The position numbers and the translations under genes are program-made. A stretch of DNA of 8,765 nt from a virus (lineage: Duplodnaviria > Heunggongvirae > Uroviricota > Caudoviricetes). The DNA lies in IMG/VR virus record IMGVR_UViG_3300028988_000042; one strand, 5' to 3'. The notes under the pieces were generated by a model that was not told where the DNA came from, did no database searches, and saw only the letters and a program-made list of their open reading frames with translations. This document shows positions 2,525 to 8,765 of the stretch, in pieces (within the stretch, counting starts at the first letter, position 1; the number at the start of each line of letters is the position of its first letter).

Positions 2525-3001
2525 ATGAAACTCATCAGTAACGATCTGCGCGATGGCGATAAATTGCCGCATCGTCATGTCTTTAACGGCATGGGTTACG
2601 ATGGCGATAATATTTCACCGCATCTGGCGTGGGATGATGTTCCTGCGGGAACGAAAAGTTTTGTTGTCACCTGCTACGACCCGGATGCGCCAACCGGCTC
2701 CGGCTGGTGGCACTGGGTAGTTGTTAACTTACCCGCTGATACCCGCGTATTACCGCAAGGGTTTGGCTCTGGTCTGGTAGCAATGCCAGACGGCGTTTTG
2801 CAGACGCGTACCGACTTTGGTAAAACCGGGTACGATGGCGCAGCACCGCCGAAAGGCGAAACTCATCGCTACATTTTTACCGTTCACGCGCTGGATATAG
2901 AACGTATTGATGTCGATGAAGGTGCCAGCGGCGCGATGGTCGGGTTTAACGTTCATTTCCACTCTCTGGCAAGCGCCTCGATTACTGCGATGTTTAGTTA
3001 A
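2525..3001 (+). CDS. ybhB: PEBP-family (phosphatidylethanolamine-binding / kinase-inhibitor-like) protein
   Basis: 158-aa ORF MKLISNDLRDGDKLPHRHVFNGMGYDGDNISPHLAWDDVPAGTKSFVVTCYDPDAPTGSGWWHW... preceded by AGGAGG 5 nt upstream of the ATG; matches E. coli YbhB, which lies between bioA and attB(lambda) in K-12. Confidence 0.95.
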   Translation: MKLISNDLRDGDKLPHRHVFNGMGYDGDNISPHLAWDDVPAGTKSFVVTCYDPDAPTGSGWWHWVVVNLPADTRVLPQGFGSGLVAMPDGVLQTRTDFGKTGYDGAAPPKGETHRYIFTVHALDIERIDVDEGASGAMVGFNVHFHSLASASITAMFS

Positions 3002-3009
3002 TCACTCTG

Positions 3010-3032
3010 CCAGATGGCGCAATGCCATCTGG
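3010..3032 (+). terminator. stem-loop downstream of ybhB (possible weak terminator of the bioA-ybhB transcript)
   Basis: CCAGATGGC (3010-3018) / GCCATCTGG (3024-3032), 9-bp perfect stem with a 5-nt loop, 9 nt after the ybhB stop. There is no clean U-tract immediately 3' (TATCACTT...), so intrinsic termination is uncertain. Confidence 0.3.
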
Positions 3033-3091
3033 TATCACTTAAAGGTATTAAAAACAACTTTTTGTCTTTTTACCTTCCCGTTTCGCTCAAG

Positions 3092-3106
3092 TTAGTATAA
3101 AAAAGT
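3092..3106 (-). other. attR: lambda-type att core (O) of a hybrid attR site; B' arm toward ybhB, P arm toward higher coordinates
   Basis: Minus strand reads TTCA-ACTTTTTTATACTAA-CTTGAGCGAAACGGGAAGG. The core matches lambda GCTTTTTTATACTAA at 14/15 (first base A instead of G), the 3' flank CTTGAGCGAAACG is the E. coli attB B' arm, and the 5' flank TTCA matches the lambda P arm. Confidence 0.8.
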
Positions 3107-3250
3107 TGAATGCGAAACGGTAAAAACCATTAATATCAACGTTTTATAATTGATTCAGTCTAAAAAATAGACTGCATAATGATACAAAACACAACATATC
3201 CAGTCACTATGAATCAACCACTTAGATGGTCTTAGTGACCTGTAACAGAG
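3107..3250 (-). other. lambda-like attP P arm with two inverted arm-type Int-binding-site-like repeats
   Basis: Minus strand reads CTCTGTTACAGGTCACTAAGACCATCTAAGTGGTTGATTCATAGTGACTGGATATGTTGTGTTTTG..., closely resembling the lambda P arm (P1/P2 region) as recalled. CAGTCACTAT at 3201-3210 and the inverted CAGGTCACTAA (reverse complement of 3232-3242) fit the arm-type Int site pattern. Confidence 0.65.
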
Positions 3251-3251
3251 C

Positions 3252-3294
3252 ATTAGCGCAAGGTGATTTTTTTGTCTTCTTGCGCTAATTTTTT
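3252..3294 (+). terminator. rho-independent terminator hairpin, candidate sib/tI-like retroregulator in the att P arm
   Basis: ATTAGCGCAAG (3252-3262) pairs perfectly with CTTGCGCTAAT (3279-3289), 16-nt T-rich loop, followed by a T-run to 3294. It is on the strand an int transcript would use when reading P' to O to P in the circular phage. Confidence 0.55.
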
Positions 3295-3608
3295 GTCAAC
3301 ACACTGGGTTAGCTGAATTTACAACCACGCTCAGTATCTCGATAAGCGCAGAGAAATGATGCAGTGGTGGGCGGACTGGATTGATGAAAAGGTGGAGTGA
3401 TCCGCCTTAACCATTATCGAAGAGCACAAAGCCTTGCAATCCAGTGCAATGCTTTGTGTATACCTATTTTCCCAAATTTGTTTCAGTAATATGTCGATCT
3501 CCAATTATTAGAATGGTACACTAAACAACGTGCGCAATTACAATAATGTAGCGTATAAAAAAACAAAAGCTAATTATATTTTTTAAATAAACATAGTGAA
3601 CTAAATAT

Positions 3609-4595
3609 ATGAGAAATTATAGCATAGATACTATGAGGTTTGTAGCGTGCTTTTTTATAATAGCTGTTCATATAGGTGGGTACCCGCAACAAGGAGAATT
3701 ATTTACAGAGGTATTTAGAGGTGTATCGCGATGGGCTGTGCCATTCTTCTTCCTGGTTACAGGATATTTTTTATCATGCCAAAACAAAAGAAAACTACTA
3801 TTAAGACTTACTAGGATAACATATATAACACTAATATTTAGCGTACTGTTCTTTATTTTTCAACTAACTTTGAACTATAAAGATGGATATTCATTAATTA
3901 TAAGCATCATAGATCCATTTATTTTTATCGGTGGGTCTTATTTCCATTTGTGGTTCTTGCCTTCAATCTTAATAGGTATGATTTCAGTAAGTTACATGAT
4001 AGAAAATGTTTCAGAAAATTTTGGAATCTCTTTAAGTATACTTATTATATTTATAATATGGTGCGTTGATTTCTTTGGTACTGCCTACTTCTCACATGAT
4101 ATATATGAATCAACAAGAACTATTCTATCAATACCAACAATATATATAGGGTATTACTTATACACTAAGAAAGACATAATTATAAAATCTAACGGGAATT
4201 TATTGATTTTATGTATGCTAGCTTCCGTGGTTTTTTCCGTGATTGAGATTCTAATATACAAATCAATATATGGTTCACTTGCCAATATAAGAGAACTACC
4301 TTTATTTTCTGTTATTACTGCTATAATAATACTAATGTTATCTATAAGATCACAAAGCACAAAAGAGACTGTTCTATCAAGGATAGGAAGAGATGATTCT
4401 ATCGTCATATATCTTATTCACCCACTATTTATAGTTTTAATATCAAAGGTGTTTAGGGTTGCTCATGAATATAACGGGATGGCTATTCTTGTGATTACAT
4501 TTATTGTAAGCATTTCGTTTTCATTGTTTGTCAAGAGTAAATTTCCTTCAATATATTCATTTCTTACTGGCGGTTTTATAAAAGAAACAAAATAA
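3609..4595 (+). CDS. acyltransferase family 3 (AT3) integral membrane protein; candidate prophage-encoded O-antigen O-acetyltransferase (lysogenic conversion)
   Basis: 328-aa very hydrophobic ORF with ~10 predicted TM segments. AT3 hallmarks: R-x10-H in the first helix (MRFVACFFIIAVH), VPFFFLVTGYFL (FFxxSG-type motif), and a C-terminal YLIHP motif. Visibly AT-rich relative to flanking DNA. Sits between attR and the tailspike, where P22-like phages carry serotype-conversion genes. Confidence 0.8.
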   Translation: MRNYSIDTMRFVACFFIIAVHIGGYPQQGELFTEVFRGVSRWAVPFFFLVTGYFLSCQNKRKLLLRLTRITYITLIFSVLFFIFQLTLNYKDGYSLIISIIDPFIFIGGSYFHLWFLPSILIGMISVSYMIENVSENFGISLSILIIFIIWCVDFFGTAYFSHDIYESTRTILSIPTIYIGYYLYTKKDIIIKSNGNLLILCMLASVVFSVIEILIYKSIYGSLANIRELPLFSVITAIIILMLSIRSQSTKETVLSRIGRDDSIVIYLIHPLFIVLISKVFRVAHEYNGMAILVITFIVSISFSLFVKSKFPSIYSFLTGGFIKETK

Positions 4596-4605
4596 ACCAT
4601 AAAAC

Positions 4606-4630
4606 ACACCACCATAATATATGGTGGTGT
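4606..4630. terminator. bidirectional stem-loop terminator between the convergent acyltransferase and tailspike genes
   Basis: ACACCACCAT (4606-4615) / ATGGTGGTGT (4621-4630), 10-bp perfect stem with a 5-nt loop; A-rich on the 5' side (a U-tract for the minus-strand transcript) and T-containing on the 3' side. Lies in the 57-bp gap between the two stop codons. Confidence 0.55.
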
Positions 4631-4652
4631 ATCAAATTATTTCTGAGCTGAT

Positions 4653-6551
4653 TTACATGTCATTTTCTGAATTATAAATAAGTACAACCTGACCTGAATA
4701 CGTTGCTTGTGATGACCACCCTGTATCCATATTGTATGGCCTGATCCTTACTTGGCTTGAACTAATTAATCTAGCTTTTATAAGCCATGTATCATCGTTT
4801 GTGTTTGCTGCTACCTCCTGAATTGATACTGTATTTGCTGGCTGGAATTGATCTGGTATTGCTCTTGTTACAACCCTTGACGATCCAGATACTGTTAGTG
4901 TGAAAAACTCCCTACCCGATGTTGATATAGATTGGCAACCTTCAGAAAAGTTGTTTCTTATATCTGGTCTGGATGATCTTCCTTCTGCTATGGTCTTCAT
5001 GCGAATAACGCTAAGTGGCATTACAGTTCCCGTTGTATTACGGAATCTGCAACCTGTTATCTTAACCTGAAACGGATTTGATATAAGATTTATTGCAACT
5101 CCATGTTCAGGTACTAACCAGTTGCATGAGCTAACAGTAAATCTCGCACCGTCTGAGTTTGATTCAATTAAGCATCCATCGAAATAGCATCCAACAAAAA
5201 TATCTGCGTTAGACATTATAACCACACGCCCTTTTGCGCTATCAGCAGACTGATTTGGATAAAAATGACTATTACTAAAAGAATTTGCTCCTTTACGTAA
5301 ATACATAACATCTGCATACTGTGAACCAATAACTAAGTCTGAGAAGTTATTATCATAGTTGTTGATATCCAAGCCAACGCCATCTGTAACGTTAGTTGGG
5401 TAAGAAGCATTCCAATCTGGTTGTTGAAATATAAACGTTTTTCCCACATTTAATTCATGTGGCTGTGAGTCATTAGGTTCAGTCTTTAATCCATAACGCA
5501 AGTATCTTGTCAGTAGACCTCCCAATATAGTCACTTTCAAAAAGTCATCATAAACCCTAATTGCGCCGGAAGCTTTCCAGTTAGCATCGATATTAGGATT
5601 AAATACCACGATGTTTTCAATTGGTCTAGAGCCGTTAACTTTACGAAAATCTAGAACAGGTTCTGTAGAAGGAAATGCTCCAATTGCTAAAAGAGATGGA
5701 TTCAACATAGAAAAATTCAAACAATCTGTTATTGTAAATGGACGTGATACATAGTAAGTGCCCTGAGTCATATCAAAAACAGTGCCACCCAAATTGTACA
5801 TGTTTGGATCTTCTCTATCAGTTGAGTAAGTTGTTTTGCGATTTCTCTTGATTATACTATCTCTCCACAAATCCAGTGCATCAGAGCTGTCGAATGTTGA
5901 ATCGCATGGTTTTGCTCCGTAATTTCTTGGGTCATCTACTGAATACCCAGAAAGAAATCCAACACACACCCATGTTGAGTCTGGAGTGGAGCCTGGCGTA
6001 ACTATATAACCATCAATTGGTATATTTCCTATATATGAATAATACATTCCATCTGAATATTTGAATGATTCGTATTTATTTAATATCACTCCGCCAACTG
6101 ACATATCTCCAGATTTTTTGTATACATATGGCATGTAATCGCTATAAACATTACCACCATATGTGCTCCCGACAATCTTATCTCCATTGTTTGATGAAAT
6201 ATCAACTCGCAACTGATCAGGATCATACTTCAGTAAATTAGGAAAATAGAACTGCTGCACACCATATGCATCATAAACAGCCATAGAGTGGCCTTGCACA
6301 GTTACGAACTTGGCAATCTGTCCGTTATATACAGGGTAACCAGCAGCGTTAATGATGATTGGTTGCGAAACAGGAACGTGAGAGCCGTCTTCGTTCTCCA
6401 CATAAACCTGAATCTGGTTTTCAGGGTTTTCCGGGTCAGTGTCAATTTTACCGATATAAATTTTGCCATTGGCTACGGCTTTAAAAGAACGAGCCATAGT
6501 GAAGAGTTGCGAAGGCATGCTTACCACAACATTTGCGGTGATATCTGACAT
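4653..6551 (-). CDS. tailspike protein: P22 gp9-like N-terminal head-binding domain fused to a divergent receptor-binding domain
   Basis: From ATG 6551 (GGAG 7 nt upstream) the product starts [40 protein letters not shown]...LKYDPDQLR, close to the P22 tailspike N-terminus [40 protein letters not shown]...LKYDPDQY as recalled. After the DPDQ hinge (6213-6224) the remaining ~515 aa are unrelated to P22 gp9 and AT-rich. The track ORF start at 6599 is rejected for the homology-supported ATG with an SD. Confidence 0.9.
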
Positions 6552-6576
6552 TTCATTGCTCCAGACGAATGATATG

Positions 6577-6599
6577 ATGCAATCATGATGTGATTGCAT
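6577..6599. promoter_or_regulatory. perfect inverted repeat, candidate operator for the Mnt-like repressor in the divergent tailspike/mnt intergenic region
   Basis: ATGCAATCA (6577-6585) - TGATG - TGATTGCAT (6591-6599): 9-bp arms, 5-bp spacer. Each arm carries a TTGCAT (-35-like) hexamer, one per strand. Located 26 bp upstream of the tailspike start codon and 74 bp upstream of the mnt-like start codon. Confidence 0.4.
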
Positions 6600-6672: not shown

Positions 6673-6933
6673 ATGTACAGCAAATACGACGAGGCGCAGT
6701 TTCACTTGAGACTTCCGCATGAACTCCACGCGAAAATTAAACAGCGCGCGAAGATGAATAACAGGTCGCTGAACTCAGAGATAATTGCAGCGATTGAAGA
6801 ATCATTGGCTAAACAAAGCTCTGCATCAGTTTACATTGACGATGCAGAGCGTATGGCAGAACAACAATCTGATATGGTTAAGAAAATTGTCTTTGATACG
6901 CTCAAGGAGCTATATAAAAAAGACAGCAACTAA
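6673..6933 (+). CDS. mnt: Mnt-like ribbon-helix-helix (Arc/MetJ superfamily) repressor
   Basis: MYSKYDEAQFHLRLPHELHAKIKQRAKMNNRSLNSEIIAAIEESL...DAERMAEQQSDMVKKIVFDTLKELYKK aligns with P22 Mnt (...HFNFRMPMEVREKLKFRAEANGRSMNSELLQIVQDAL...DAERLADEQSELVKKMVFDTLKDLYKK) as recalled. Start chosen at ATG 6673 (GAGG 8 nt upstream, length matches Mnt); the in-frame ATG at 6640 is an alternative. Confidence 0.85.
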   Translation: MYSKYDEAQFHLRLPHELHAKIKQRAKMNNRSLNSEIIAAIEESLAKQSSASVYIDDAERMAEQQSDMVKKIVFDTLKELYKKDSN

Positions 6934-6953: not shown

Positions 6954-7031
6954 ATGCAAAGAGATATGATGAATATTACATTCTACATATTTGGTTTTTG
7001 CACTTTCCTGGTGTTTGCAAAGCTATTCTGA
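6954..7031 (+). CDS. hypothetical 25-aa hydrophobic micro-protein (single predicted TM helix)
   Basis: ATG 6954 with GGAGG at 6945-6949 (4-nt spacer); translation MQRDMMNITFYIFGFCTFLVFAKLF then TGA. Directly downstream of mnt on the same strand and overlaps the 3' end of the convergent ejection-protein gene by 9 bp. No homology evidence; could be fortuitous. Confidence 0.2.
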   Translation: MQRDMMNITFYIFGFCTFLVFAKLF

Positions 7032-8531
7032 CAACGCATCAGACTTAGCCCCCTGCGTCATAGCGTTAATTGCCTTTTGTGCCTGCTGCATGGCTTTCTC
7101 AAACGCTGTTGATCCGCGTGGGGTGTTTGCCATTCGGAGCATTGCATTTCTGAATGGCTCGCTCTCATAGGCGCGAGTGAGAAGTCCGTAGCTTACTGCT
7201 GCGCCAGTTGTCGCCGGGTTCATTGCCGTCCCATACCCAATAATGAACGGGATAGTTTGCTGCCCTGTGGGTGTTGTTACTGCCGCTTTTGCAGCCTGCT
7301 GCGTGGATTGCAGGTAGTTTTTCAATCCTTTCAGATAAGCGGCTTCCTGACCTTTAAATGTGATGCCAGTCTGGTTTTGCAGGATGTTAAGCTGCCGAAG
7401 GAACTGGTCAGGGGAACCACCTGATTTCTCCATCGCCTTTCCAATGATGCCATTGCGCATTTGCGCCCTGCCAACACGACCAACTGAGTTATACAGAGTC
7501 TTAATTTCCGATTTGTTCTTGCTGAATAGCATGTTGTTGACAACTTCCGGCGTAAGATCGCCTTTCATGAGAACATTCTTCAGCCTGGTATTCTTTAGTT
7601 TCGCCGCTTCGTCAGCGTAAACGGCATTGGCCTGCTGATATTTACGGAGAGTATCGCTGCCAAGATTCTGACCAATGGCACCATTGATATCGTCGGTCAT
7701 TGCCTTGTAAACTCGCTGAATGGCAGCATCGGAACGGTTTGGTAATACCGGTCGCTCACCCTTCACGTCCATTCTGAACTGGCTGCGCAGGTCGCTTAAT
7801 TGCTTCAAATCCAGATTTACCGGACCATCAGGGCCAGCATTGCGAACAAGCTCATCACGATATGACTGAAGTTTTGAAATTGTCTCGTTATCAGCTACCT
7901 TACCAAGCTTCTGCAGATTAGATATCTCAGTATCAATCTGCTGAATTGCTCGCGCAGGCTGAATGTTTACTCCAGCCATAGCATTCTGAACCTGCTCCAG
8001 TCGATTACCGGCGGCACGACGAATTCCTGATGTTTTCGTTTTAAGGCTGCCAATAACAACCGCTGGATCATACTCGCCGAATTTATCAGCAAATCTCTGC
8101 ACCAACTGACTTCTCGCTTCCTGTTGCGTTGCTCTCATTCCGCTTGTGCCAGCCAGGGGAATATTTTCTGCTGTAGTCTGCGCCATTTTCCCGACGCGGG
8201 AAGTAGGCTGTAACAGGTCTGTGGTGTGCAGAGGCACTCCTTCACGCTCTGCAAATCTGATAGCTTGCTGCGCTTCTGGTGCAATAGCACCACGAACGCC
8301 ACGATAAGCAGCGCCTAATCCACGTCCGGCAGCGTTAATAGCGCCGCCAGCCAGAACGCCAACGCCTAAATCGGTGGCGAGTGCTTCCGCATCATCTTTC
8401 GCACTATTTGCAGCAAGTGATCCAACTGCGTTTTCAGCGAGAAGGCGAGTTGCCCCCTGAGCAATTCGACCAGCAAGTGTTGGTGCCTGTGCTGCCGCTC
8501 TCTCAACGCCAGCAGGAGTGAGGTAAGGCAA
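7023..8531 (-). CDS. phage virion internal / DNA-ejection-type protein (position equivalent to P22 gene 16); true 5' end uncertain
   Basis: Long ORF with Ala/Gly/Gln/Lys-rich composition typical of P22-like ejection proteins, located immediately upstream of the immunity-I/tailspike region on the tailspike strand. The listed start is a TTG with no good SD, and the frame stays open with protein-like translation up to a TAA at 8760-8762, so the real start is probably upstream. Confidence 0.6.
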   Translation of the reverse strand: MPYLTPAGVERAAAQAPTLAGRIAQGATRLLAENAVGSLAANSAKDDAEALATDLGVGVLAGGAINAAGRGLGAAYRGVRGAIAPEAQQAIRFAEREGVPLHTTDLLQPTSRVGKMAQTTAENIPLAGTSGMRATQQEARSQLVQRFADKFGEYDPAVVIGSLKTKTSGIRRAAGNRLEQVQNAMAGVNIQPARAIQQIDTEISNLQKLGKVADNETISKLQSYRDELVRNAGPDGPVNLDLKQLSDLRSQFRMDVKGERPVLPNRSDAAIQRVYKAMTDDINGAIGQNLGSDTLRKYQQANAVYADEAAKLKNTRLKNVLMKGDLTPEVVNNMLFSKNKSEIKTLYNSVGRVGRAQMRNGIIGKAMEKSGGSPDQFLRQLNILQNQTGITFKGQEAAYLKGLKNYLQSTQQAAKAAVTTPTGQQTIPFIIGYGTAMNPATTGAAVSYGLLTRAYESEPFRNAMLRMANTPRGSTAFEKAMQQAQKAINAMTQGAKSDALSE

Positions 8532-8765
8532 TGCTTCAGCAAATACCCTTCCCTCTGTCGTTTGTGGAGTCAGCGCGCCTTGCTGAAAGCCAAAGTCCTG
8601 CTCTAATCCCTGCGTTGTTACTCGTGGCGCTGGTTGATATGTACCATCGCCAATACCGAGTTTACCGCCAGCCCAAGTGAAGTGGTCAACAAAAACTGGC
8701 CACCGAGTTAGAGTTTTTTCCAGTATCGATTTTCCGATTCGTTTGGTGGTAACCCACCATTATAT

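What the first reader, a model, noticed from the sequence alone, without database searches (positions are those of the whole stretch)
3092..3300. attR junction with lambda-like P arm and a diverged core
The host sequence matches the K-12 attB B' arm up to the core, then switches to a P arm that is recognisably lambda-like but diverged in the region I could compare by eye, with arm-type Int-site-like repeats retained in inverted orientation (3201-3210 and 3232-3242). The first core position is A rather than G. So the integration module is lambda-family while the virion module is P22-like, which means a mosaic lambdoid phage that uses attB(lambda). The intact arm sites suggest the element may still be excisable if int and xis are intact at the other end.
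Basis: partly seen in the sequence, partly recalled or inferred. Interest (0 to 1): 0.5.

Follow-up and report, generated by a model that had tools for sequence, protein, structure and literature searches.

The report
Lambda-type attR of decayed P22-like prophage
This is the ordinary right-hand attachment junction (attR) left where a P22-like phage with a lambda-type integration module entered the classic lambda site of E. coli; the junction is intact, but the prophage behind it is an insertion-sequence-eroded remnant that almost certainly cannot excise by itself.

Summary
Window 3092-3106 (reverse strand) is ACTTTTTTATACTAA. The 600 bases of host flank up to 3105 are identical to K-12. From 3107 the sequence is a lambda-type P arm, with P1, H1, P2, X1, X2/Fis, H2 and C at exactly lambda's spacing, followed by the tI/sib hairpin (3251-3296). 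The "diverged core" is one base in the C Int-binding site, outside the unchanged 7-bp overlap. The lysogenising phages PhiR70_1 and mEp332 share it.

The mosaic claim holds but is not new. JEP4, Huey, Gally and φHS3 are P22-like phages that carry this att region or integrate at this locus, and about a third of complete E. coli genomes have a lambda-type P arm at ybhB.

The hope of excisability is not supported. The window ends in an ISEc52 element that cuts an ejection-protein gene. All five complete genomes with this attR allele have the same IS followed by a 5'-truncated int, no xis, then an intact attL and ybhC. Their breakpoints form a nested deletion series.

The mosaic joint is marked at 3317-3400 by a fossil 3' end of an IntS-type integrase gene.

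Verdict: a real, textbook feature of low novelty.

The parts
2525..3001 (+). ybhB (PEBP-family 'kinase inhibitor'), the host gene on the bio side of attB(lambda)
   Evidence: Pfam PF01161, E = 5.8e-42. Annotated ybhB in Ec40743 and K-12. The 600 bases ending at 3105 are identical to K-12.
3040..3091 (-). B' arm (host half of attR). It contains most of the B' core-type Int site CAAGTTAGT, which spans 3088-3096 on the + strand.
   Evidence: Identical to K-12 attB to the right of the core (A1). Assigning the site by the consensus CAACTTNNT rests on my own knowledge.
3092..3106 (-). 15-bp common core, ACTTTTTTATACTAA on the - strand. The 7-bp overlap (strand-exchange) region TTTATAC is at 3095-3101.
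   Evidence: The overlap is identical in lambda, 434, JEP4, Huey, 720R6 and PhiR70_1. The first position is A instead of G, as in PhiR70_1 and mEp332.
3100..3108 (-). C core-type Int site, CAACTTTTT (lambda has CAGCTTTTT). It holds the single 'core' difference, at 3106.
   Evidence: site table. attL in five related genomes keeps G, so the A came from the phage attP.
3134..3146 (+). IHF site H2 (TATCAACGTTTTA, which fits WATCAANNNNTTR)
   Evidence: Same offset as lambda H2 (-48..-36). The consensus positions are kept and only N positions differ.
3158..3178 (-). Xis site X2 (3165-3178, TATGCAGTCTATTT) overlapping the Fis site F with its A-tract (3158-3172)
   Evidence: Two changes from lambda X2. 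Identical to the allele of 434, JEP4 and mEp332.
3186..3199 (-). Xis site X1 (ATATGTTGTGTTTT)
   Evidence: Identical in all eight sequences aligned.
3201..3210 (+). Arm-type Int site P2 (CAGTCACTAT)
   Evidence: Identical to lambda P2, at offset -112..-103.
3212..3224 (+). IHF site H1 (AATCAACCACTTA)
   Evidence: One change from lambda, at an N position of the consensus; shared with PhiR70_1 and mEp332.
3232..3241 (-). Arm-type Int site P1 (AGGTCACTAA)
   Evidence: Identical to lambda P1, at offset -143..-134.
3251..3296 (+). tI terminator / sib-type hairpin followed by a T-run. This is the element that retro-regulates int in the un-integrated phage; in the prophage it is separated from int.
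   Evidence: Nearly identical to lambda, with a 2-base longer A/T run in the loop (A1, A2). RNA fold -25.1 kcal/mol, z = -5.9, 0 of 200 shuffles as good. The aligned position in phage 434 is annotated as a terminator. The simple terminator scan misses it because its loop exceeds 8 nt. The sib/RNase III role is from my own knowledge of lambda.
3317..3400 (+). Fossil 3' end (27 codons plus stop) of an IntS/P4-type integrase gene. It marks the joint where the lambda-type att/int module meets the P22-like backbone.
   Evidence: Translation is IYNHAQYLDKRREMMQWWADWIDEKVE*, against the C-terminus GIYNHAQYLDKRREMMQWWADWLDEKVE* of the 385-aa IntS in L012. Homology to the IntS-type prophage L012 starts exactly at 3317, at 99.7%. 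PGAP calls it an incomplete gene.
3609..4595 (+). Acyltransferase-3 family gene, a probable O-antigen acetylase moron, in a 27-31% GC island
   Evidence: Pfam PF01757, E = 5.9e-28. Composition. It occupies the same position as oac in Sf6.
4653..6551 (-). P22-type tailspike (632 aa from the PGAP start)
   Evidence: PF09008 Head_binding, E = 5.4e-66. Exact protein found on many contigs.
6673..6933 (+). Mnt/Arc-family repressor of the P22 immI region
   Evidence: PF03869 and PF11423.
7023..8677 (-). P22 gp16-family ejection-protein gene, truncated at its 5' end by the IS
   Evidence: The full-length 665-aa homologue in relatives carries PF26808. The window diverges from all five genomes at 8678.
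8678..8765 (+). Terminal 88 bases of ISEc52 (IS3 family), starting with the inverted repeat TGAAGTGGTCAAC...
   Evidence: Matches annotated ISEc52 copies at 98-99%. Identical to the IS end at L002 16224-16311, in the same orientation.

Best explanation
Window 3040-3296 is a lambda-family attR (P-O-B'). It was produced when a temperate P22-like podovirus carrying a lambda-type int-xis-attP module integrated by Int-mediated strand exchange at attB(lambda), between ybhC and ybhB.

Anatomy. The exchange took place in the 7-bp overlap TTTATAC. Everything on the ybhB side is host B' arm. Everything on the other side is the phage P arm (C, H2, F/X2, X1, P2, H1, P1), followed by the tI/sib hairpin. 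The A at the first core position is the phage's own allele of the C core-type site.

Biochemical competence (inferred from sequence). As DNA, the site has what lambda excision needs from attR: B', C, H2, the Xis/Fis sites and P2, all at lambda's spacing.

State of the prophage. The element behind the site is no longer a phage. A 1,250-bp ISEc52 replaced the early region, xis and the 5' part of int, and has since nibbled outward in both directions. In the source strain the IS abuts the gp16-family gene at 8678.

Conclusion. The attR is a relic. It cannot be used by the element's own functions. It could recombine with attL only if a lambda-specificity Int and Xis were supplied in trans.

Shown: the anatomy, the homologies, the IS junction, and the decay series in relatives. 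Inferred: the far end of the actual source strain, and protein binding and activity at the sites.
For: Junction:
- Host identity to K-12 runs up to 3105, then the sequence switches to a lambda-type P arm.
- All lambda sites are present at identical offsets with no indels.
- The arm-type motif occurs only at these two places in the window, against 0.10 expected.
- The tI hairpin folds at -25.1 kcal/mol, z = -5.9, and is annotated as a terminator at the aligned position in 434.

Matching attL in five genomes: the core plus P' arm is 110/110 identical to lambda, and the B side is identical to K-12.

Phage origin of the A: attL has G and attR has A. PhiR70_1 and mEp332 have the same CAACT, and their records are cut attL-to-attR, with the hosts listed as E. 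coli C and K-12 MG1655. Both annotate a 356-aa integrase and an excisionase, and PhiR70_1's Int is 99% identical to lambda Int.

Mosaic type:
- JEP4 and Huey are complete circular P22-like genomes with the order integrase (preceded by an annotated excisionase in Huey), attP, then tailspike. JEP4's Int is 99% identical to lambda Int.
- Gally excises, recircularises and lysogenises (PMC9928086).
- φHS3 integrates upstream of ybhC.

Decay:
- ISEc52 begins at window 8678 and is identical to the IS end in Ec40743.
- All five complete genomes with this attR allele have IS, truncated int, attL, ybhC, and no xis.
- The int fragment in Ec40743 is lambda Int residues 168-356 at 98% identity, without the arm-binding and core-binding domains.
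- There are five distinct left breakpoints and two right breakpoints around one IS.

Against: - The source genome was not found. No complete E. coli genome, GTDB representative or JGI metagenome contig holds the 8678 junction, so the far end of this particular strain is inferred from relatives.
- An independent second ISEc52 insertion, with a more complete prophage beyond it, cannot be strictly excluded.
- The draft contig L017 carries the identical attR, acyltransferase and tailspike with virion genes running at least to the scaffold gene. It could be a more complete or even intact copy.
- Protein binding and recombination were not tested and cannot be tested here.
- An intact attP (P-O-P') with the A variant was not found in IMG/VR: 0 hits, against 13 for the G variant.
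Confidence: 0.88

Rival explanations
1. One reading: the attR belongs to a still complete mosaic prophage, with intact int and xis at the other end, that can excise on induction.
For: All attR protein sites are intact. Closely related free phages with the same module are active (Gally, φHS3, JEP4). The draft contig L017 has the identical attR with an uninterrupted virion gene set as far as can be seen.
Against: An ISEc52 end interrupts the ejection-protein gene inside the window at 8678, so at least one essential virion gene is destroyed. All five complete genomes with this allele lack xis and have a 5'-truncated int. The IS end in the window is base-for-base the same, and in the same orientation, as the one that abuts int in those genomes.
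Confidence: 0.05
2. The attR-attL pair is still a working substrate in trans. A co-resident or superinfecting phage of lambda Int specificity (lambda, 434, Gally-type) supplies Int and Xis, excises the 7-18 kb remnant as a non-replicating circle, and so frees attB or loses the acyltransferase-tailspike cassette.
For: Every site lambda needs for excision is present: in attR at lambda's spacing and in attL, which is 110/110 identical to lambda. The overlap regions of attL and attR are identical. Int proteins of phages carrying these att alleles are 99% identical to lambda Int. Phages of this specificity are common, since about a third of complete E. coli genomes have a lambda-type P arm at ybhB.
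Against: There is no direct evidence. The 100% conservation of 3060-3300 among the five genomes probably reflects recent common ancestry rather than selection. The effect of the C-site change and the X2/H2-proximal divergence on lambda Int/Xis/IHF assembly is untested. This is a capacity, not a demonstrated function.
Confidence: 0.3
3. The attR belongs to a separate lambda-like siphovirus prophage lying in tandem with an unrelated P22-like prophage, so there is no single mosaic element.
For: The closest P-arm alleles (95%) are in the lambdoid phages mEp332 and PhiR70_1 rather than in P22-like phages.
Against: Only 225 bases of lambda-type sequence (3092-3316) precede the P22-like backbone. The same contiguous order of attP, short linker, then tailspike (with or without a moron) occurs in the complete circular P22-like genomes JEP4 and Huey. 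In the relatives, attR and attL are 10.9-17.8 kb apart, with only P22-like genes, one IS and the int fragment between them.
Confidence: 0.02
4. Chance resemblance: an AT-rich intergenic stretch that merely looks like an att site.
For: The region is AT-rich (34% GC), and short motifs are more frequent in such sequence.
Against: There is 81-95% identity over about 150 bp to known attP arms with no indels. The switch from host to phage sequence falls exactly at the core. A matching attL exists in the relatives. BLAST E-values against phage attP regions range from 1e-59 to 1e-136.
Confidence: 0

Closest known systems
Bacteriophage lambda attR / attP P arm (J02459, core 27724-27738)
   Same: Same chromosomal site, the same 7-bp overlap, and the same set and spacing of P1, H1, P2, X1, X2/F, H2 and C, with tI/sib just beyond P1. 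The attL in relatives is 110/110 identical to lambda's core plus P' arm.
   Different: The P arm is 81% identical overall, falling to 66% between H2 and C. The C site is CAACTTTTT instead of CAGCTTTTT. About 130 bp, including the intS fossil, separate tI from a hairpin that lies next to tI in lambda. The phage behind the site is a P22-like podovirus, not a siphovirus.
Lambdoid phages mEp332 (PV340541) and PhiR70_1 (PV340577)
   Same: These are the closest P-arm alleles: 95% over -160..-8 and 100% over the tI segment. They share the A-variant C site and the H1 variant, carry a full-length integrase and an excisionase, and PhiR70_1's Int is 99% identical to lambda Int.
   Different: Distal to about window 3405 they carry unrelated genes (transposase fragment, AraC-type regulator, lambda-type tail genes) rather than the acyltransferase-tailspike cassette.
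P22-like phages that carry a lambda-type att region or use this locus: Gally (OV696608; PMC9928086), JEP4 (MT740315), Huey (PQ850609), vB_EcoP-720R6 (ON470605), φHS3 (bioRxiv 10.64898/2026.05.19.726188)
   Same: Same mosaic architecture of attP, linker, then tailspike/Mnt and ejection genes. In JEP4 and Huey the integrase lies next to attP, Huey also annotates an excisionase, and JEP4's Int is 99% identical to lambda Int. The 720R6 record carries the same ybhB-attR junction. Gally excision and lysogeny, and φHS3 integration upstream of ybhC, are shown experimentally. For φHS3 only the integration site is documented here.
   Different: JEP4, Huey and 720R6 have the G-variant core, P arms 83-86% identical, and different tailspikes and morons. 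They are intact phages, whereas the element here is an IS-truncated remnant.
Shigella phage Sf6 and IntS-type P22-like prophages at argW (e.g. L012)
   Same: Same backbone of acyltransferase, tailspike, Mnt and ejection genes. L012 is 99.7% identical from window 3317 onward, and the Sf6 backbone matches at 94%.
   Different: These use a 385-aa P4-type IntS and a different site. In the window only the last 27 codons of that integrase gene survive.
IS-eroded cryptic lambdoid prophages of E. coli in general (for example the K-12 remnants; named from my own knowledge)
   Same: att junctions are retained while the recombination, regulatory and structural genes are lost to IS-associated deletions.
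   Different: Here several stages of the erosion are preserved in different strains around one and the same ISEc52 copy.

Membership tests
Lambda-family attR (P-O-B') at attB(lambda) | A host B' arm continuous with the ybhB side of the K-12 attB, with homology ending at the core | tested here: met
   600/600 identity to K-12 up to 3105, with divergence from 3106.
Lambda-family attR (P-O-B') at attB(lambda) | A 15-bp common core whose 7-bp overlap TTTATAC is identical to that of attB and attL | tested here: met
   The overlap at 3095-3101 is identical. 14 of 15 core positions match; the one change lies in the C site outside the overlap.
Lambda-family attR (P-O-B') at attB(lambda) | Arm-type Int sites P1 and P2 in inverted orientation at lambda's distances from the core | tested here: met
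   Both 10-mers are identical to lambda's, at offsets -143..-134 and -112..-103. They are the only two matches in the window, against 0.10 expected.
Lambda-family attR (P-O-B') at attB(lambda) | Accessory sites: IHF H1 and H2, Xis X1 and X2, and the Fis A-tract | tested here: met
   The IHF consensus is kept at both positions. X1 is identical, and X2/F matches the 434/JEP4 allele. This is sequence evidence only; binding was not tested.
Lambda-family attR (P-O-B') at attB(lambda) | A partner attL (B-O-P') at the other end of the element | tested here: inconclusive
   Present and lambda-identical in all five complete genomes carrying this attR. It lies outside the window, and the source strain was not found.
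Excision-competent lambda-type integration module | A full-length lambda-type Int (356 aa, with arm-binding and core-binding domains) encoded by the element | tested here: not met
   In all five related genomes only Int residues 168-356 or about 120-356 remain after the IS. The window ends in the same IS. For the source strain itself this is an inference.
Excision-competent lambda-type integration module | An Xis (excisionase) gene upstream of int | tested here: not met
   No xis is annotated or has room to exist between the IS and the int fragment in any of the five genomes.
Excision-competent lambda-type integration module | Demonstrated attL x attR recombination | not testable with these tools
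   Requires PCR for attB/attP junctions or an in vitro recombination assay.
P22-like (Lederbergvirus) virion module | A tailspike with the P22 head-binding domain, the immI Mnt/Arc gene, and gp7/gp20/gp16-type ejection proteins in P22 order | tested here: met
   PF09008, PF03869 and PF11423 in the window. PF26808, PF16928, PF25688, PF16532, PF11134, PF11650 and PF11651 in the relatives. A Lederbergvirus is among the closest phage hits.
Lambda tI / sib retro-regulatory element | A strong hairpin plus U-run on the int-sense strand just beyond P1 | tested here: met
   Fold of -25.1 kcal/mol, z = -5.9. Near-identity to lambda (A1, A2). Annotated as a terminator at the aligned position in 434. RNase III processing is not testable here.

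The most novel reading that the evidence does not exclude
The remnant may be more than dead DNA. Its fully intact attR-attL pair would make it a helper-dependent excisable cassette. A phage of lambda Int specificity could then cut out, and so remove or free attB from, the surviving acyltransferase-tailspike-mnt block. The phage-borne C-site allele CAACTTTTT lies closer to the core-type consensus as I recall it, and might bind Int better than lambda's own C site, shifting integration/excision efficiency. A smaller novel point: the IntS 3' fossil at 3317-3400 is shared by 434, JEP4, PhiR70_1 and this element. That would record one ancestral replacement of a P4-type integrase module by a lambda-type one, which then spread across both podovirus and siphovirus lambdoids.
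Probability: 0.25. Interest if true: 0.3.

Novelty: already known. Interest (0 to 1): 0.1.

Why it matters
It matters little beyond correct annotation. It tells an annotator three things: the island from ybhB to the IS is a defective P22-like prophage at attB(lambda), the att sites are intact but the recombinase genes are not, and the acyltransferase and tailspike are stranded cargo. Two aspects have modest teaching or evolutionary value. First, six stages of a two-sided, IS-anchored deletion series are preserved in different strains, which shows cleanly how a prophage is whittled away while its att sites survive. Second, the 27-codon IntS fossil pinpoints to within about 20 bp where integration modules were swapped between phage lineages.

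Tried and rejected
- **Source strain.** No complete E. coli genome covers the window past 8677. An exact scan for the 8678 junction found nothing in GTDB representative genomes or JGI metagenomes.
- **Tailspike look-up.** It failed with the 648-aa ORF from the first ATG and worked with the 632-aa PGAP start.
- **Intact A-variant attP.** A scan for an attP (P-O-P') with the A-variant core in IMG/VR gave 0 hits, against 13 for the G-variant control. The A variant's activity therefore rests on the mEp332 and PhiR70_1 lysogen records, not on a circular phage sequence.
- **Rfam.** Nothing in the window reached a gathering threshold.
- **Terminator scan.** The simple scan reported no terminator at tI because the loop exceeds its 8-nt limit. 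I relied on the fold, the homology to lambda and the 434 annotation instead.
- **Pfam.** It gave no family for the truncated ejection protein. The family assignment comes from precomputed hits on the full-length homologue.
- **Scripting error.** The host-flank comparison was invalid because a negative slice left nothing compared. It was redone correctly.
- **Literature.** A search for the core-type consensus string found no paper holding it, so that consensus is quoted from memory only.
- **Rejected explanations.** Tandem prophages and chance resemblance were considered and rejected (see rivals).
- **L017.** I could not walk beyond the 10-kb flank to see whether that copy is intact.
Full report
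**What is in the sequence**

The window runs bioB (-), bioA (+), ybhB (+, 2525-3001), then a phage-derived island. The 600 bases ending at 3105 are identical to K-12 MG1655, and identity stops at 3106. The host-flank figure printed is invalid and was redone.

On the reverse strand, 3092-3106 reads ACTTTTTTATACTAA. Lambda attP (J02459, annotated core 27724-27738), K-12 attB and the attL of related genomes read GCTTTTTTATACTAA.

In the four-way alignment (A1) the window follows K-12's B' arm on one side of the core and lambda's P arm on the other. That is the definition of an attR (P-O-B'). The orientation also fits: attR is the bio-proximal junction of a lambda-type prophage.

**Is it more than chance?**

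Yes. Over lambda positions -160..-8 the window is 81% identical to lambda (124/153) with no indel. It is 90% identical to phage 434, 83-86% to the P22-like phages JEP4, Huey and 720R6, and 95% to the lambdoid phages PhiR70_1 and mEp332.

| Site | Window coordinates | Comparison |
|---|---|---|
| P1 | 3232-3241 | AGGTCACTAA, identical to lambda |
| H1 | 3212-3224 | IHF consensus kept |
| P2 | 3201-3210 | CAGTCACTAT, identical to lambda |
| X1 | 3186-3199 | identical to lambda |
| X2 / Fis | 3158-3178 | the 434-type allele |
| H2 | 3134-3146 | IHF consensus kept |
| C | 3100-3108 | CAACTTTTT (lambda CAGCTTTTT) |

Every site sits at lambda's exact offset from the centre of the overlap. The arm-type motif MRGTCACTAW occurs only at these two places in 8,765 bases, against 0.10 expected.

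Beyond P1 lies the lambda tI/sib hairpin (3251-3296). It is nearly identical to lambda's, folds at -25.1 kcal/mol with z = -5.9, and is annotated as a terminator at the aligned position in phage 434.

**The "diverged core"**

Only one of 15 positions differs, and it lies in the C core-type Int site, outside the 7-bp overlap TTTATAC where strands are exchanged. The overlap is unchanged.

The A is phage-derived. In attR the sequence left of the overlap comes from attP, and in the five genomes carrying this element attL keeps the bacterial G while attR has A.

The same CAACT allele is present in PhiR70_1 and mEp332. Their records are cut attL-to-attR, with hosts listed as E. coli C and K-12 MG1655. 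Both annotate a 356-aa integrase and an excisionase, and PhiR70_1's Int is 99% identical to lambda Int. The allele is therefore compatible with integration at attB(lambda).

From memory, the core-type consensus is CAACTTNNT, which the A variant fits better than lambda's own C site. I could not find a paper holding that string, so this stays a recalled lead.

An un-recombined attP with the A variant was not found in IMG/VR: 0 hits, against 13 for the G variant.

**The mosaic**

The genes behind the junction are P22-like:
- a tailspike with the P22 head-binding domain;
- Mnt/Arc;
- a gp16-family ejection protein;
- in relatives, the whole P22 order back to coat, scaffold and portal.

An Acyl_transf_3 gene in a 27-31% GC island sits between attR and the tailspike, where Sf6 has oac.

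The lambda-type segment is only 225 bases long (3092-3316). From 3317 the window becomes 99.7% identical to an IntS-type P22-like prophage integrated at a different site (L012).

Window 3317-3400 encodes IYNHAQYLDKRREMMQWWADWIDEKVE*, the last 27 residues of that 385-aa IntS integrase. This fossil of a P4-type integrase gene marks the joint where integration modules were exchanged. It is shared by 434, JEP4 and PhiR70_1 and is absent from lambda (A3; A1, A2).

The mosaic type itself is already known:
- JEP4 and Huey are complete circular P22-like genomes with the order integrase (preceded by an annotated excisionase in Huey), attP, then tailspike. JEP4's Int is 99% identical to lambda Int.
- Gally of E. 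coli LF82 has been shown to excise, recircularise and lysogenise, and its attP primer lies in this same tI/P1 sequence (PMC9928086).
- φHS3 integrates upstream of ybhC.

A lambda-type P arm at ybhB is found in 1,753 of 5,426 complete E. coli genomes.

**Is it still excisable?**

The last 88 bases of the window (8678-8765) are the end of an ISEc52 element that cuts the ejection-protein gene. They are identical, in the same orientation, to the IS end in strain Ec40743.

The exact attR allele occurs in only five complete genomes: Ec40743, PM22, JNE170426, LR-51 and 23-AB02114. In every one, the far end of the element is the same 1,250-bp ISEc52, then a 5'-truncated int, then an attL whose core and P' arm are 110/110 identical to lambda, then ybhC. 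None has a xis.

The Ec40743 int fragment is lambda Int residues 168-356 at 98% identity. It is the catalytic domain only, without the arm-binding and core-binding domains.

The IS-proximal breakpoints differ between strains:

| Strain | Gene abutting the IS on the virion side |
|---|---|
| JNE170426 | portal |
| Ec40743, PM22 | coat |
| 23-AB02114 | gp10 |
| LR-51 | tail needle |
| the window | gp16 family |

There are also two different breakpoints on the int side. This is a two-sided nested deletion series around one IS copy, leaving remnants of 10.9-17.8 kb in the complete genomes and, by extrapolation, about 7.5 kb in the source strain.

The source strain itself could not be found, so its far end is an inference. 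A draft contig (L017) with the identical attR and a longer run of virion genes may be a more complete copy.

**How it works now**

The structural work on the lambda excisive complex (PMC4880445) describes what excision uses on the attR side: a bridge between the Int bound at B' and the P2 arm site, an IHF bend at H2, and three Xis subunits. Fis is a non-essential enhancer. The core-type sites are B, B', C' and C. All of these are present here in lambda's geometry, and the partner attL in the relatives is lambda-identical.

The DNA substrate is therefore probably competent, but the element encodes neither a functional Int nor Xis. The best-supported reading is a relic junction that could recombine only if a lambda-specificity Int and Xis were supplied in trans. 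I rate that capacity at about 0.3 and it is untested.

The tI hairpin, which in the free phage lies downstream of int and retro-regulates it (my own knowledge of lambda sib), is here separated from int and lies downstream of ybhB. Any present role, such as stopping read-through into the acyltransferase gene, is speculation.

**Verdict**

This is a real, well-formed lambda-family attR of a P22-like mosaic prophage. It is a textbook feature and a known phage type, so interest is low. The IS-anchored decay series and the IntS fossil are the only mildly noteworthy extras.

Noticed in passing
window 3317-3400 (+): A fossil 3' end (27 codons plus stop) of an IntS/P4-type integrase gene lies about 20 bp beyond the lambda-type tI hairpin. 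The same fossil sits next to attP in phage 434, JEP4 and PhiR70_1 but not in lambda. It marks an old swap of integration modules. In the 434 record the region is annotated only as a hypothetical ORF on the opposite strand.
   Followed up: yes
window 8678-8765; L002 16224-17473; L010, L011, L019, L020: One 1,250-bp ISEc52 copy anchors a two-sided nested deletion series. There are five different virion-side breakpoints (portal, coat, gp10, tail needle, and gp16 family in the window) and two int-side breakpoints, across six strains from China, Japan, Ecuador, Cuba, Germany and the unknown source.
   Followed up: yes
window 3427-3460: The inverted repeat CACAAAGCCTTGCAATCCAGTGCAATGCTTTGTG is conserved in 434, JEP4 and L012. 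In lambda it lies only about 25 bases from the tI hairpin, whereas here about 130 bp (including the intS fossil) separate the two. Its function is unknown; it may be a terminator or another RNA structure downstream of the former intS gene.
   Followed up: partly
window 3460-4650; L012, L016, L017: The low-GC (27-31%) acyltransferase gene and the tailspike travel together as a cassette. It is found at 99-100% identity with at least three integration contexts: attB(lambda) next to ybhB, an IntS integrase next to a Form_Nir_trans-family gene that I read as yfdC, and a third site next to a Peptidase_S11 (PBP5-type) gene.
   Followed up: partly
window 3077-3170 against complete E. coli genomes: 1,753 of 5,426 complete E. 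coli genomes carry a lambda-type P arm joined to the ybhB-side B' arm, so attB(lambda) is occupied in about a third of sequenced strains. Only five carry this exact allele.
   Followed up: partly
window 4058: A single SNP inside the acyltransferase gene separates the window (and JNE170426 and LR-51) from Ec40743 and PM22. 23-AB02114 has yet another protein variant.
   Followed up: no
L010 21114-21569 and L020 21114-21569: In JNE170426 and 23-AB02114 the DUF2824 gene of the remnant has an internal stop codon, so point-mutational decay is under way in addition to the IS deletions.
   Followed up: no
window 4653-6599 (-): The longest ORF for the tailspike (648 aa from the first ATG) is 16 codons longer than the start used by PGAP and by the protein collection (632 aa, 4653-6551). 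Only the shorter form is on record.
   Followed up: yes
window 3003-3040: The hairpin GCCAGATGGCGCAATGCCATCTGG lies just after the ybhB stop codon and is probably ybhB's own terminator. Transcription from bioA-ybhB would then already be stopped before the att site.
   Followed up: no
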